A DNA stretch of 64,000 nt from Malacoraja senta (GCA_038087875.1 CM075988.1:4464001-4528000); one strand, 5' to 3'. Shown: positions 3,111 through 48,060, numbered from the stretch's first letter. The notes: generated from the letters alone by a model not told the origin. Program-made: numbers and translations.

Positions 3111-3402
3111 GAAAGAGACTCCCAGATATTGGAAAATGAATGAAATCAAAAGATATGGAGTTAGTCCAGGGAAACAGTGCTTGAAGCAATGGCAAAACAG
3201 GCATGATGGGCCAAATGGCTTCTTACCTTTGCTCTCTAGATTTGCATAGGAGGGGGGGTAGGTAGAAATCCAGTAAAAGATTTTATATTGAGAGAGAGTG
3301 ATCGCTGTCATCTCTGGGATTTAGTGGCTTCTGCATATCCTGGTTGCAACTCTGTCACAGATACAGAGAATGTTAAATAAAAGTGAAAATCCATCTGTTA
3401 AT

Positions 3403-3676
3403 TTAGTTTAGTTTAGAGAACAGCACAGAAACAAGCCCTTCAGCCCACCGAGTCCGCACCGACCAGCGATCCCCGCGCTCTCCTGCGCACACTAGGGACA
3501 ATTTACATTTAGACCAAGCCAGTTAACCTACAATCCTGTATGTCTTTGGAATGTGGGAGGAAACCGGAGACCTCGGGGAAACCCCACGCAGTCACGGGGA
3601 GAACGTCCACACTCCGTACAGACAGCACCCGTGTCTCTGGTGCTGTACGTGCTGTAAGGCACCACCGTGCCGCCCC
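3403..3676 (-). mobile_element. HE1/V-type SINE
   Basis: Same sequence family as 583-922, with (ttag)n tail on +. Confidence 0.88.
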
Positions 3677-4094
3677 TTGCATGACATGTTGTTACATGAC
3701 TGGTACACCTGTCATTGCCAAAGTCTATACGTATACAACACTCGCTGAATAACATCAAGAAAGCTTGAAGTTGATGAAAATGAACTAAATAAGAGTAAAA
3801 AAAGAAATCTTTCTTGGATTCTTAATATAGAGCAATGTCTGTTATATGGTTCATCGAATTTGCATAATACTCTGAGAAATCTCGTCAAATCAAGTTGAGT
3901 TCATTGTCATCTACACAAGTACAAGGAGTTTTAGATTTAGTTACAGATTTATTTAGTTTTAGAGATGCAGCATGGAAACAGGCCCTTCGGCCCACTAAGA
4001 CAACGCTGACCAGCAATCACCCCATACAACAGTTCCATACTACACCCTGGCCCGGTAAGGCAGCAATTCTACCACTGTGCCACCAGCTTCTGTC

Positions 4095-11399: not shown

Positions 11400-11945
11400 T
11401 TCGGGCGTTCGCTCGCTCGTGTGTCAGACGACATTCTGCCATCGCTTTACCACACCCAGTGCCACATTTGTGCCTCTGCAGAGATCGTCCGCAGTGCGTG
11501 CCTCTCCACTGTAAGTCAGTAGGTGGGCCATTGTCTGCACCTCTCCACAGTTGCACTTGTCAGAGTTCGAGAGGCCCCACTTCTTCAGGTTGAGTCTGCA
11601 ACGTTCCACTCCAGTGTGGAGGTGGTTTAGGGCTTTCCAGGTAGTATAAGGTAGGTGGTGTCCTGGTGCCATCTGTTGTATGGTTTTGGTGCCTGGCACA
11701 GTTGGCTCTAGTTCCATGAAGCTGTTCCGACTCTTCAGGCGTTTCTTGGCATGTTGGTGATTGTGCAAGGGGTGGCAGGGGTCTGTGTCCGCATTGAAGC
11801 GTTCTTCAATGGGTGGTGCTTCGGGGGTGATTAGCCAGATTGGACCTGTCTTCCTTTTTCTGAATAGGAGATACATAGTCAATTGTCCACAGGTAGATGT
11901 CAGGTAAACGTCAGTAGTTCCAGAACAGGTTGGCTTGTGAAGCAT
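11400..11945 (-). mobile_element. Vingi/Ingi-clade LINE 3' fragment
   Basis: HPLH..RLKSRNSF..W..LN.LHTG..RC..NL.KWG...C.CGEVQTMAHLL C-terminus; very short 3' tail tgacacacgagcgagcgaac. Confidence 0.8.
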
Positions 11946-21259: not shown

Positions 21260-21680
21260 TAGTGGTGCAGACTTGCTGTTGCATCACAGTGCCTGAGATC
21301 CAGGTTTGATCCTGACCTTGGGTGCTGTCTGTGTGGAGTTTGCATGTTCTTCCTGTGACTGCGTGAGTTTCCTCCGGGTGCTCCGGTTTTCTCCCACATA
21401 CCTAATGACGTGCGGGCTTGCAGTTCTTCAATTTGGCCTCTGTGGAATTGGCTCTGATGCTCAGGAAGTGAATGAGAAATTAGGTTAACAGAACTAGTGT
21501 AAACAGGTGATCAATGGTCAGTAGACTCCAAATGCTGGAGTAACTCAGCGGGACAAGCAGCATCTCCGGAGAGAAGGAATGGGTGACGTTTCGGGTCAAG
21601 GTCCTTCTTCAGGCTGATCAATGGTCAGTTTGGACTCAGTGGGCCAAAGGGCCTGTTTCTAAGCTGTATCTCTAAATAAA
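21260..21680 (+). mobile_element. HE1-type SINE interrupted by an inverted Penelope tail
   Basis: tgatcaatggtcagt duplicated at 21508 and 21615 around the insert. Confidence 0.82.
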
Positions 21681-21700
21681 GTTCATGCTACTGTGAGAGT

Positions 21701-21787
21701 GGGGATCATGACAGAAGCCTCCTCGTGGCGATCCCGGAAACGACGACATGATGCACTCTGTGATGTGTCGGGTGACTAATTCTGTCA
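21701..21787 (+). ncRNA. HDV/CPEB3-like self-cleaving ribozyme (predicted)
   Basis: P1 (G)GGGAUC/GAUCCC; P2 UGACAGAA/UUCUGUCA; P3 GCC/GGC; L3 UCCUCGU; P1.1 CC/GG; P4 CGAC-ACAU/AUGU-GUCG; J4/2 CUAA with candidate catalytic C21776. Confidence 0.85.
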
Positions 21788-21850
21788 ACGTGTTGGACGA
21801 CGACAGAAGCCAACAGCGAGCTACACGTCGTCTGACACACGAGCGAACGA
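21701..21850 (+). mobile_element. 150-bp non-autonomous Vingi-derived retroposon
   Basis: 11-bp TSD actgtgagagt at 21690-21700 and 21851-21861; 3' 20 nt gtcgtctgacacacgagcga identical to the end of the Vingi fragment (reverse complement of 11413-11432). Confidence 0.85.
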
Positions 21851-21956
21851 ACTGTGAGAGTTGGTTCTCAATGTTCTGGTGCTGAGTTAGAATGAGAGTT
21901 GTGCTCTATTGAACGTGAGTTTGATTTGATTGTATCTATATATGCTTATCTGATCT

Positions 21957-22168
21957 GTGTAGGAATTAACTGCAGATGCTGGTTTAAATGGAAGTTAGAC
22001 CCAAAAGGCTGGAGTAACTCAGCAGGACAGGCAGTCTCTCTGGAGAGAAGAAATGGGTGTTGTTTTGATTCGAGTCTGAAGAAGGGTTTCGACCAGAAAC
22101 GTCACCCATTCCTTCTCTCCAGAGATGCTGCCTGTCCTGCTGAGTTACTCCAGCTTTTTGTGTCTATC
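21957..22168. mobile_element. Palindromic Penelope-tail mini element
   Basis: Head-to-head inverted copies of the tail (gctggagtaactcagcaggacaggca / tgcctgtcctgctgagttactccagc) around a hammerhead-like core at 22076. Confidence 0.8.
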
Positions 22169-47061: not shown

Positions 47062-48060
47062 AGTTTAGTTTTGTTAGTTTCACAGACAATGTGTGGAAAC
47101 AGGTCCTTCAGCCCACCGAGTCCACGCCAACCAGCGATCTCTGCACATTAACACTTTCCTACACACACTAGGGACGGTTTACATTTACACCAAGCCAATT
47201 AAAGTACAAACCTGTTTAAGAAGGAACTGCAGATGCTGGAAAATCGAAAGTAGACAAAAACGCTGGAGAAACTCAGCGGGCGAGGCAGCATCTATGGAGT
47301 GAAGGAAATAGGCAACTTTTCCTATTTCCTTCGCTCCATAGATGCTGCCTCACCCGCTGAGTTTCTCCAGCATTTTTGTCTACCTGAAATGCAAACCTGC
47401 TCGTCTTTGTAGTGTGGGAGGAAACCGAAGATCTCGGAGCAAACCCACGCAGGTCACGGAGAGAACGTAAGACTCCGTATAGACAAGCACCCATAACCAA
47501 GGTGAACCCGGGTCTCATAGAAACATAGAAACATAGAACATAGAACATAGGTGCAGGAGTAGGCCATTCGGCCCTTTCGAGCCTGCACCGCCATTCAATA
47601 TGATCATGGCTGATCATCCAACTCTGTATCCTGTACCTGCCTTCTCTCCATACCCCCTGATCCCTTTAGCCACAAGGGCCACATCTAACTATCTCTTAAA
47701 TATAGCCAATGAACTGGCCTCAACTACCTCTGTGGCAGAGAATTCCAGAGATTCACCACTCTCTGTGTGAAAAATGTTTTTCTCATCTCGGTCCTAAAAG
47801 ACTTCCCCCTTATCCTTAAACTGTGACCCCTTGTTCTGGATCTCCCCAACATCGGGAACAATCTTCCTGCATCTAGCCTGTCCAACCCCTTAAGAATTTT
47901 GTAAGTTTCTATAAGATCCCCCCTCAATCTTCTAACTTCTAGCGAGTACAAGCCGAGTCTATCCAGTCTTTCTTCATATGGAAGTCCTGACATCTCAGGA
48001 ATCAGTCTGGTCTCTGGCGCTGTAAGGCAGCAACTCGCCCGCTGCACCACCATGCTGCCC
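47062..48060 (-). mobile_element. HE1 SINE interrupted by a palindromic Penelope mini (47213-47385) and a CR1 fragment (47517-48008)
   Basis: gggtctc|...|ggtctctggcgctgtaagg continuity across the CR1 insert. Confidence 0.85.

What the first reader, a model, noticed from the sequence alone, without database searches (positions are those of the whole stretch)
21701..21787. HDV/CPEB3-like self-cleaving ribozyme exactly at the 5' end of a mini-retroposon
Seen: all elements of the nested double pseudoknot occur in order. P1 21701/2-21707 pairs with 21730-21735; J1/2 is A; P2 UGACAGAA (21709-21716) pairs perfectly with UUCUGUCA (21780-21787); P3 is GCC/GGC; L3 is UCCUCGU; GG 21736-21737 can form P1.1; P4 spans 21741-21770; J4/2 ends CUAA with C21776 at the catalytic-C position. 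The predicted cleavage site falls within 1 nt of the TSD-defined 5' end of the insertion. Established: HDV-like ribozymes process the 5' ends of R2 and of trypanosome L1Tc/ingi elements, and the CPEB3 ribozyme has the same layout. Inference: a ribozyme-headed retroposon family in a chondrichthyan, released from read-through transcripts without its own promoter. Caveat: P1 has 6 Watson-Crick pairs and lacks the usual G1-U wobble, so this copy may be weakened. I cannot tell whether the family has been described.
Basis: partly seen in the sequence, partly recalled or inferred. Interest (0 to 1): 0.9.

Follow-up and report, generated by a model that had tools for sequence, protein, structure and literature searches.

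The report
Ribozyme-headed mini-retroposon derived from a LINE
A 151-base jumping element starts exactly at the predicted cut site of a hepatitis-delta-type self-cleaving RNA and is a shrunken copy of a 2.8-kb LINE in the same genome, a known kind of arrangement whose relatives here look strikingly like the mammalian CPEB3 ribozyme.

Summary
Window 21701-21787 has every part of the HDV-type double pseudoknot at the stated coordinates. Rfam's CPEB3 model matches it (26.6 bits, below the cut-off of 35; E 0.0076 for the whole window) and places G1 at 21701, directly after the target-site duplication.

It is one worn copy of a family with at least 534 members. All 30 copies examined have their own duplication, and 27 of the 30 start exactly at G1. 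Most copies have a 7-pair P1; the window copy has lost one C.

The parent was found. A duplication-flanked 2768-nt LINE encoding an endonuclease and a reverse transcriptase begins with the same ribozyme-plus-leader (about 125 nt) and ends with the same 27-nt tail. The mini-element is therefore an internal-deletion derivative, like R2 SIDEs or NARTc.

Across six ribozyme-headed families in this genome, 8 of 19 pairs in P1, P2 and P3 show compensatory changes.

Cleavage itself was not tested, and the RNA reads were uninformative.

Verdict: a new member of a known kind.

Side finding: 39 of 59 scored loci pass Rfam's mammalian CPEB3 cut-off. One family is about 81% identical to that consensus, including P2 and P4.

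The parts
21690..21700 (+). 5' copy of the target-site duplication, ACTGTGAGAGT
   Evidence: an 11-of-11 match with 21851-21861, ending at the base before G1.
21701..21707 (+). P1 5' strand. G21701 is the predicted first nucleotide after cleavage (G1). It is unpaired in this copy.
   Evidence: CPEB3 model position 12 falls on 21701; the family has a 7-pair P1.
21709..21716 (+). P2 5' strand, TGACAGAA
   Evidence: In one search, 5 of the 7 P2 pairs counted there (the P2 pairs other than 21709-21787) show compensatory changes across families.
21717..21729 (+). P3 (GCC/GGC) enclosing L3 (TCCTCGT). C21721-C21722 are the P1.1 partners.
   Evidence: T20, C22, C24, G25 and T26 are invariant in 14 of 14 rows. 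The 11-mer core is the one quoted for R2 ribozymes in PMC5035012.
21730..21735 (+). P1 3' strand, GATCCC. Most copies have GATCCC followed by C or T; one C is deleted here.
21736..21737 (+). GG of P1.1
   Evidence: pair 22-37 is C-G in 14 of 14 rows.
21741..21770 (+). P4 hairpin
   Evidence: Several CpG sites have decayed to TG in this copy.
21771..21779 (+). J4/2, with C21776 at the catalytic-C position, followed by T-A-A
   Evidence: this C column is nearly invariant across families and aligns with the C of CGAA in the CPEB3 model.
21780..21787 (+). P2 3' strand, TTCTGTCA
21788..21824 (+). Leader inherited from the parent LINE's 5' end. It includes the 5' arm of the tail hairpin (21790-21802) and a second GACAGAAGCC (21802-21811).
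   Evidence: SINE positions 3-125 align at 84% with the 5' end of the full-length LINE (L087). One search gives the fold.
21825..21851 (+). 3' terminus shared with the parent LINE. It holds the 3' arm of the hairpin (21826-21838) and CGAG-CGAA-CGAA repeats (21840-21851). There is no poly(A).
   Evidence: 26 of 27 identical to the LINE 3' end (L086); 77 places carry that LINE tail; the repeat number varies (L032).
21851..21861 (+). 3' copy of the target-site duplication. A21851 is shared with the end of the element.
11406..11805 (-). 5'-truncated copy of the parent LINE family: the end of the ORF plus the same tail
   Evidence: (match at C12:4475457-4475738, minus strand), and (90% identity to L086 over 393 nt).

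Best explanation
Window 21701-21851 is an old, partly decayed copy of a non-autonomous non-LTR retroposon. The family arose by internal deletion of a ~2.8-kb LINE that encodes an AP-endonuclease and a reverse transcriptase. The LINE is RTE-like in size and layout.

The mini-element keeps the LINE's first ~125 nt, made of an 87-nt HDV-type double-pseudoknot ribozyme plus a leader. It also keeps the LINE's last ~27 nt, made of the 3' arm of a hairpin plus CGAA repeats.

Proposed cycle:
1. A copy lying in any transcribed region is read through by the host polymerase (inferred).
2. The ribozyme folds and cuts just 5' of G1, discarding the host sequence and defining the RNA's 5' end (inferred from the fold, the covariation and the 5' junctions).
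3. The LINE's reverse transcriptase recognises the shared 3' hairpin and repeat and copies the RNA at a nicked target (inferred from the shared tail). This leaves 7-14-bp duplications and occasional 5' truncations (shown).

The window copy has lost one P1 pair and is probably weakened or dead.
For: Family:
- 885 first-look candidates. All 40 scored are 92-100% identical and near full length.
- 534 places for the core word, against 0 for the reversed control.

Junctions:
- 30 of 30 copies have a 7-14-bp duplication with at most 1 mismatch.
- 27 of 30 duplications end exactly at the base before G1.
- 5'-truncated copies with their own duplications exist (L051-L055).

Fold:
- The CPEB3 model matches with G1 at 21701.
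- Across 14 natural copies of 6 ribozyme-headed families, 8 of 19 pairs have changes on both sides, in 40 cells.
- Covariation is 0.438 against 0.215 +/- 0.022 in shuffles (0 of 500 reach it) and 0.07-0.14 when partners are slid.
- P2 has 5 of 7 covarying pairs.
- L3 and the catalytic-C column are conserved.
- The nested part of the fold lies within 0.3 kcal/mol of the MFE in L006.

Parent LINE:
- The element at C2:39446230-39448997 (2768 nt) is flanked by a 7-of-8 duplication.
- Its first 127 aligned columns are 84% identical to the SINE.
- It then continues into an ORF that is 45.6% identical over 68 aa to the endonuclease end of another LINE here (E 4e-21). That LINE hits Pfam RVT_1 and Exo_endo_phos.
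- Its last 27 nt match the SINE tail. The tail comparison itself was done on L086, at 26 of 27.
- The LINE family is abundant: 152 matches among 3169 candidates, and 77 tail words against 0 for the control.

No Pol III signature:
- ARAGORN finds nothing.
- The best box A and box B matches have 3-4 mismatches (the box consensus sequences are recalled).

A sister LINE family (3.14 kb, copies 97-98% alike) also starts at G1 of its ribozyme in at least 5 of 7 copies.

Precedent: passages read in PMC6765202 state that RTE and baggins elements and some SINEs use HDV-like ribozymes to free themselves from co-transcripts.
Against:
- No HDV-family model in Rfam reaches its gathering score on the SINE: 26.6 and 25.6 bits against 35, and 0 hits on 20 further loci.
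- Most copies have G1-C, not the G1-U wobble. Passages read in PMC1874588 say HDV requires the wobble. The T variants (7 of 30) fit ordinary CpG decay: C>T counts at the other nine CpG sites range from 0 to 7 of 30 (6-7 at four of them). A counterpoint is that Rfam's F. prausnitzii HDV consensus also closes P1 with G-C.
- Within the family there is no covariation above shuffles. The copies are too young and are decaying neutrally.
- The cross-family count used 14 rows that I picked. One row (L075) was dropped because an indel put it out of register. P4 was not counted. Relatedness among rows inflates the shuffle control.
- The MFE of the window copy is not better than shuffles (z +0.20). Pseudoknots are not modelled.
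- The one full-length LINE copy examined has A at the catalytic-C column and is itself decayed. Its middle ~2 kb was not fetched.
- 5' ends at G1 would equally fit a transcription start.
Confidence: 0.85

Rival explanations
1. The 5' module is kept for a role other than cutting. It could be a binding site for the LINE protein or a structure that helps translation, as has been proposed for R2. On this view the 5' end at G1 is set by transcription initiation or by some other processing step.
For: - Passages read in PMC6765202 say that the R2 protein binds the 5' pseudoknot and that the ribozyme may act like an IRES.
- Most copies have G1-C rather than the canonical wobble.
- Junctions at G1 cannot tell a cut from a start.
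- No pile-up of read starts was seen at G1 (low depth).
Against: - A SINE has no ORF to translate.
- L3, P1.1 and the J4/2 C, which are the catalytic parts, are the most conserved columns across six families, while the helices covary.
- No promoter boxes were found.
- Related LINEs with the canonical G1-U also begin exactly at G1.
Confidence: 0.08
2. The element is an ordinary Pol III-transcribed SINE, derived from a tRNA, 5S or 7SL gene. Its 5' end is then the transcription start, and the likeness to HDV is coincidental.
For: - Its size (151 nt), copy number and duplications are SINE-like.
- It begins with a G run.
Against: - ARAGORN finds no tRNA.
- The best box A and box B matches have 3-4 mismatches.
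- The first 125 nt are the 5' end of a protein-coding LINE.
- The CPEB3 model matches, and covariation supports the fold.
Confidence: 0.03
3. The motif is a chance match in a repeat with no ribozyme history.
For: - The score is below Rfam's gathering threshold.
- The MFE z-score is +0.20.
Against: - E is 0.0076 at the scale of the whole window.
- Every element is in the right order and register.
- P1 is identical to that of a sister LINE's ribozyme that scores 64 bits, while P2 and P3 differ from it by compensatory changes.
Confidence: 0.01

Closest known systems
R2 SIDEs, the short internally deleted elements of R2 (Eickbush and Eickbush 2012, PMC3414825: abstract seen in a search listing; also described in passages of PMC6765202)
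   Same: - Both are non-autonomous derivatives that keep the parent LINE's 5' HDV-like ribozyme and its 3' end and have lost the ORF.
- Both are mobilised in trans.
- The 11-nt P3/L3 core CCUCCUCGUGG quoted for R2 (passage in PMC5035012) is identical here.
   Different: - R2 and its SIDEs insert at one site in 28S rDNA, using a restriction-like endonuclease.
- This family is dispersed, with variable 7-14-bp duplications, and its parent carries an AP-type endonuclease.
- Identity of the core may be convergent (passage in PMC3774820).
NARTc/L1Tc and other Pr77-bearing elements of trypanosomatids (PMC3383444 and PMC4035085: abstracts seen in a search listing)
   Same: - A dispersed LINE and its truncated non-autonomous partner share a 5' HDV-like ribozyme that frees the RNA from co-transcripts.
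- They have duplications of about 12 bp.
   Different: [quoted passage not shown] No promoter evidence was found here.
- The host kingdom and the LINE clade differ.
- Here the tail is a hairpin plus CGAA repeats.
HDV-like ribozymes at the 5' ends of RTE and baggins LINEs (Ruminski et al. 2011: paper not held; content taken from passages of PMC6765202)
   Same: A promoter-less LINE encoding an AP endonuclease and a reverse transcriptase, about 3 kb long, is headed by an HDV-like ribozyme just upstream of its ORF. This matches the parent LINE and its sister family here.
   Different: - Those examples are mostly from insects and nematodes, according to the review.
- I found no report for this genome's group in the held library.
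- Clade membership (RTE) is inferred here from size and layout only.
Mammalian CPEB3 intronic ribozyme (Rfam RF00622)
   Same: - It is the best-matching Rfam model.
- The P2 core CAGAA/UUCUG and the J4/2 xAA are shared.
- Sister families in this genome reach 44-64 bits.
   Different: - The SINE stays under the cut-off (26.6 against 35).
- Its L3 is of the R2/HDV type (UCCUCGU, not UUCACGU).
- It has two G-C pairs in P1.1, a longer P4 and a longer J4/2.
- It is a multi-copy mobile element, not a single conserved intronic locus.

Membership tests
HDV-like self-cleaving ribozyme (structural class) | Nested double pseudoknot with P1, P2, P3, P1.1 and P4 in the canonical order and register | tested here: met
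   Read directly from the sequence. Supported by cross-family pairing: 88.7% of cells paired and 8 of 19 pairs compensatory.
HDV-like self-cleaving ribozyme (structural class) | Catalytic C in J4/2, three bases before the P2 3' strand | tested here: met
   C21776-T-A-A-P2. The column is nearly invariant in the 14 rows and aligns to the C of CGAA in RF00622.
HDV-like self-cleaving ribozyme (structural class) | A 7-nt L3 with U...G (a reverse wobble) and the C residues that form P1.1 | tested here: met
   L3 is TCCTCGT. T20, C22, C24, G25 and T26 are invariant in 14 of 14 rows. The role of the U and G is taken from passages in PMC3774820 and PMC1874588.
HDV-like self-cleaving ribozyme (structural class) | G1-U wobble closing a 7-pair P1 at the cleavage site | tested here: not met
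   In the window copy G21701 faces G21736, leaving 6 pairs. In the family the pair is G-C in 18, G-U in 7 and other in 2 of 27 copies. Rfam's F. prausnitzii HDV consensus also has G-C, so this may not be disqualifying.
HDV-like self-cleaving ribozyme (structural class) | Site-specific self-cleavage that leaves a 5'-OH on G1 | not testable with these tools
   The only indirect evidence is that 27 of 30 genomic 5' junctions lie at G1. The RNA reads were uninformative.
Rfam RF00622 CPEB3_ribozyme | Score at or above the gathering threshold (35 bits) | tested here: not met
   26.6 bits for the window copy and 25.6 bits for L006. No gathering-level hits on the window or on 20 further loci.
Non-autonomous non-LTR retroposon mobilised by a LINE (SINE in the broad sense) | Many dispersed copies, each with its own target-site duplication, and 5'-truncated copies | tested here: met
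Non-autonomous non-LTR retroposon mobilised by a LINE (SINE in the broad sense) | 3' end shared with an autonomous LINE in the same genome | tested here: met
   26 of 27 nt identical to the LINE 3' end. The full-length LINE carries that tail.
Canonical SINE (Pol III, derived from tRNA, 5S or 7SL) | Internal Pol III promoter or a small-RNA-derived head | tested here: not met
   No tRNA was found. Box A and box B have at least 3 mismatches (the box consensus sequences are recalled). The head is the LINE's 5' end.
R2 SIDE | Insertion at the R2 site of 28S rDNA and derivation from R2 | tested here: not met
   The 30 copies have 30 different flanks and duplications. The parent has an AP-endonuclease-type ORF start.
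RTE clade LINE (the parent) | Phylogenetic placement of the reverse transcriptase within RTE | not tested
   Only the size (2.8-3.1 kb), the single ORF and the endonuclease-plus-RT layout were seen.

The most novel reading that the evidence does not exclude
The mammalian CPEB3 intronic ribozyme is a domesticated 5' ribozyme of this lineage of LINE-type retroposons, which is still present as multi-copy families in this genome.

Evidence for the reading:
- 39 of 59 scored loci pass Rfam's 'mammalian' CPEB3 cut-off, the best at 64.2 bits. All 23 hits that I read fell into five repeat families.
- One family (L073, L074, L076) matches the CPEB3 consensus at 54 of 67 positions, by my count. The matches include P1, P2 and P4, whose sequences catalysis does not dictate. 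One P2 difference is a compensatory pair.

Convergence of active sites is a known trap (PMC3774820), but it would not explain likeness in P2 and P4.
Probability: 0.4. Interest if true: 0.85.

Novelty: new member of a known kind. Interest (0 to 1): 0.6.

Why it matters
This locus gives a clean, sequence-complete example of how a LINE headed by an HDV-type ribozyme sheds its coding region and becomes a 150-nt parasite of its parent. The parent, the deletion junction, the shared tail and hundreds of precise 5' junctions are all available in one genome. I found no report of this in vertebrates; in the passages I read, vertebrate HDV-like ribozymes were R2 elements, the single CPEB3 locus and a lamprey example.

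A promoter-less element that frees itself from any host transcript can also cut host pre-mRNAs wherever an active copy sits in sense orientation. Active copies could therefore matter for gene expression.

The side finding is that several retroposon families here satisfy the mammalian CPEB3 model. This makes the unresolved origin of the CPEB3 ribozyme directly testable.

Tried and rejected
**RNA evidence**
- The look-up of sequencing runs listed no RNA holder.
- One poly(A) RNA run of a coded organism, of which about 6 in 100 was read, laid 124 reads on a family-typical copy.
- Reads came in both orientations and showed no pile-up of starts at G1. Eight reads carried unmatched sequence before position 1500.
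- This is no verdict either way.
- The DNA contigs of three coded organisms do hold the family: 3347-3749 contigs were laid, with many loose ends at the element's first base.

**Within-family covariation**
- It is not above shuffles.
- I rejected it as a test because the copies decay neutrally.

**Hunting the parent with 'not-this-base' patterns**
- Searches returned SINE indel variants, a nested insertion (L032) and truncated copies.
- One search returned 0 hits.
- Searches returned 2 hits each, and these look random.
- These searches failed because the parent shares 125 nt with the SINE, not just the ribozyme.
- The parent came instead from the tail word, a protein search and a comparison of coordinates.

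**The 3.14-kb sister LINE as the partner**
- I rejected it. Its tail ends in GAA repeats and shares only a few bases with the SINE tail.

**Searches that could not be run or found nothing**
- My own covariance model could not be run on the genome.
- On the window, that model finds only the element itself.
- Earlier scan notes held nothing relevant.

**Endogenous deltavirus**
- I considered and dropped this idea. The element is 151 nt, is flanked by a duplication, and is derived from a LINE.

**Papers not held**
- Ruminski 2011 and Webb and Luptak 2011 were not held.
- Their content is cited only through other papers.

**Searches for the family or a CPEB3-retroposon link in print**
- Searches found no such report in the held library.
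- Subscription papers, Repbase and Dfam were not searchable.

Full report
**1. The observation**

- P1: GGGATC (21702-07) pairs with GATCCC (21730-35).
- J1/2: A21708.
- P2: TGACAGAA (21709-16) pairs perfectly with TTCTGTCA (21780-87).
- P3: GCC/GGC, closing the 7-nt loop TCCTCGT.
- P1.1: GG 21736-37 lies opposite CC 21721-22.
- P4: a hairpin at 21741-70.
- J4/2: ends C21776-T-A-A.

The duplication ACTGTGAGAGT sits at 21690-21700 and 21851-21861, so the inserted DNA starts at 21701.

Rfam results:
- The default scan lists nothing for the window.
- With E-value reporting, the CPEB3 ribozyme model aligns end to end, with its first ribozyme base on 21701. The score is 26.6 bits against a cut-off of 35. 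E is 3.1e-5 on 261 nt and 0.0076 on the whole window.
- A plain MFE fold is no better than shuffles (z +0.20). This says little, because pseudoknots are not modelled.

**2. It is a family, and the window copy is a worn member**

Copy number:
- The window's own genome is 1.94 Gb. The window is C12:4464001-4528000.
- It gave 885 first-look candidates. All 40 that were scored are 92-100% identical and essentially full length.
- A 24-nt core word occurs at 534 places within one mismatch. The reversed control gives 0.

Junctions in the 30 fetched copies:
- All 30 have their own 7-14-bp duplication.
- In 27 of 30 the duplication ends at the base before G1.
- In the other 3 it ends two bases earlier.

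The 3' end and truncated copies:
- There is no poly(A). The 3' end is a short run of CGAA-type repeats whose length varies (L032).
- Copies truncated at the 5' end, with their own duplications, exist (L051-L055).
- These are hallmarks of target-primed reverse transcription.

P1 in the family:
- Most copies have a 7-pair P1, so the window copy has lost one C from the run.
- The closing pair is G-C in 18, G-U in 7 and other in 2 of the 27 copies with letters there.
- The T variants look like ordinary CpG decay. That site has 7 C>T and 6 G>A changes, against 0-7 C>T (6-7 at four of nine sites) at other CpG sites. CpG columns carry 3.4 changes on average and other columns 0.64.

Other differences between the window copy and most copies are mostly C>T, including the base next to the catalytic C.

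**3. Is the fold real?**

Within the family there is no signal above shuffles. This is expected for young copies that decay neutrally. The useful comparison came from elsewhere in the genome.

The CPEB3 model across the whole genome:
- Searching with Rfam's CPEB3 model scored 59 of about 102,000 loose candidates.
- 39 of the 59 are above the cut-off, the best at 64.2 bits.
- The same search on 14 control prokaryote genomes gave none over the cut-off.

The 23 hits that I read fall into at least five repeat families, and each begins at a ribozyme.

I aligned 14 natural copies from six families: three SINE copies and eleven others. I then counted P1, P2, P3 and P1.1:
- One row, L075, was dropped because an indel put it out of register.
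- P4 was not counted because it does not align.
- 88.7% of cells are paired.
- 8 of 19 pairs have changes on both sides, in 40 cells.
- The covariation score is 0.438, against 0.215 +/- 0.022 in shuffles (0 of 500 reach it).
- With the partners slid, the score is 0.07-0.14 and 0-1 pairs are compensatory.
- P2 carries 5 of 7 covarying pairs.
- L3 and the J4/2 C stay fixed.

Caveats: I chose the rows, they represent only about six lineages, and relatedness inflates the shuffle control. The slid control does not suffer from that.

The SINE shares its P1 with one LINE family exactly. It differs from that family in P2 by two compensatory pairs and in P3 by one.

**4. The parent**

The sister LINE:
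- It is 3.14 kb long and its copies are 97-98% alike.
- Its single ORF of up to 940 aa hits RVT_1 and Exo_endo_phos.
- In at least 5 of 7 copies the duplication ends at G1.
- Its tail ends in GAA repeats, so it is not the partner of the SINE.

Finding the partner's tail:
- Patterns built to find the SINE tail behind a different upstream sequence first returned only SINE variants.
- Two odd hits then led to a tail word that occurs at 77 places, with 0 for the control.
- That word belongs to a LINE whose ORF C-terminus runs almost to the end of the element (L086).
- The last 27 nt of that LINE match the SINE's at 26 of 27, and in both they form the 3' arm of a hairpin.
- A protein search with the C-terminus found 152 matches among 3169 candidates. 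One is a truncated copy in this very window, at 11406-11805 on the minus strand.

The full-length copy:
- Comparing coordinates showed a SINE-type ribozyme core 2.4 kb upstream of a LINE C-terminus, on the same strand of C2.
- The two ends of that element were fetched as L087 and L088.
- It starts at G1.
- It matches SINE positions 3-125 at 84%.
- It then continues into an ORF that is 45.6% identical over 68 aa to the endonuclease end of the sister LINE (E 4e-21).
- It ends with the SINE-type tail.
- It is flanked by a 7-of-8 duplication.
- It spans C2:39446230-39448997, which is 2768 nt.
- This copy is decayed, with A at the catalytic-C column.

The mini-element is therefore the LINE's first ~125 nt joined to its last ~27 nt. 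The junction falls at 21824/21825, give or take one or two bases of microhomology.

**5. How it most likely works**

Shown:
- A dispersed family with precise 5' junctions at G1.
- Duplications and 5' truncations.
- The head and the tail are shared with an autonomous LINE.
- The helices covary and the core is conserved.
- No tRNA-like head was found.
- There is no convincing Pol III box (the box consensus sequences are recalled).

Inferred:
- Copies are transcribed as part of host transcripts.
- The ribozyme cuts 5' of G1.
- The LINE's reverse transcriptase recognises the tail hairpin and repeats and copies the RNA to its cut end.

This is the mechanism described for R2, RTE, baggins and L1Tc elements and their short derivatives (passages read in PMC6765202; abstracts of PMC3414825 and PMC3383444 seen in listings).

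Points about the cleavage site:
- The base before the cut in the window copy is T. Passages read in PMC1874588 report that a U at -1 is the most favourable in HDV.
- The same paper says the G1-U wobble is required in HDV. That counts against full activity of the common G1-C form.
- Rfam's consensus for the F. prausnitzii HDV-like ribozyme also closes P1 with G-C.

The window copy has a 6-pair P1 and is probably weak or dead.

**6. RNA evidence**

No run on record as RNA holds the stretch. One poly(A) RNA run gave 124 reads in both orientations, with no pile-up of starts at G1. This is uninformative. DNA contigs from three coded organisms hold thousands of family pieces whose matches break at the element's first base.

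**7. Comparison and novelty**

The closest systems are:
- R2 SIDEs, which are built the same way but are rDNA-specific and have a different endonuclease.
- NARTc/L1Tc, which has the same logic but where the head is also a promoter.
- Ribozyme-headed RTE and baggins LINEs.

The P3/L3 core is identical to the one quoted for fly and zebra finch R2 (PMC5035012). PMC3774820 warns that such identity can be convergent.

The element fails Rfam's CPEB3 threshold and lacks the wobble in most copies. I therefore file it as an HDV-like ribozyme by architecture, not as a member of any named Rfam family.

Searches of the held library found no description of this family or of ribozyme-headed retroposons in cartilaginous fishes. 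Repbase, Dfam and most subscription papers could not be searched.

Verdict: a new member of a known kind.

**8. The side finding**

Several retroposon families here satisfy the model built from mammalian CPEB3 ribozymes. One family is identical to that consensus at 54 of 67 positions by my count, including P2 and P4.

[quoted passage not shown] If this genome is non-mammalian (not verified here), these families are candidate relatives. They suggest that the CPEB3 ribozyme began as a retroposon head. I did not establish what kind of element that family is.

Noticed in passing
L056-L065 and L073-L085 (own genome; places listed): At least five other repeat families begin with ribozymes that pass Rfam's mammalian CPEB3 cut-off (44-64 bits). 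One family (L073, L074, L076, L083) resembles the CPEB3 consensus along its whole length, P4 included. Another (L080, L081, L084, L085) has almost no P4.
   Followed up: partly
window 11406-11805, minus strand: A 5'-truncated copy of the SINE's parent LINE lies 10 kb from the SINE in the same window. It holds the ORF C-terminus and the same hairpin-plus-repeat tail.
   Followed up: yes
window 21802-21811 compared with 21710-21719: GACAGAAGCC occurs twice: once as the P2/P3 5' strand and once in the loop of the tail hairpin. The P2 3' strand could pair with either copy about equally well (-9.2 and -9.1 kcal/mol in L006). This could be a competing fold that modulates cleavage.
   Followed up: partly
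G000:C1:270656565-270656622, minus strand: A single place shares a 20-nt word of the SINE leader (GACAGAAGCCAACAGCGAGC) but has unrelated sequence on both sides. It was not fetched and is unexplained.
   Followed up: no
window 21520-21640 and 21990-22165: Copies of another very abundant repeat (core ...GGAGTAACTCAGC...) flank the insertion. The downstream one contains two inverted copies that could form a long hairpin. The same repeat gives the huge depth peaks beside L006.
   Followed up: no
window 47267-47367: A palindromic stretch matches miRNA-precursor and plastid 3'UTR models on both strands, far below their cut-offs (45 bits against 73). It is probably just a long hairpin or inverted repeat.
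   Followed up: no
L032 973-1570: A SINE copy is split by a nested insertion of about 470 nt from a different repeat. Its 3' end carries 4-5 CGAA units instead of 2-3.
   Followed up: partly
L060 and L064: A further ribozyme-headed family (78-nt ribozyme) shares only about 30 nt downstream of the ribozyme before the two copies diverge. It may be another very short retroposon.
   Followed up: no
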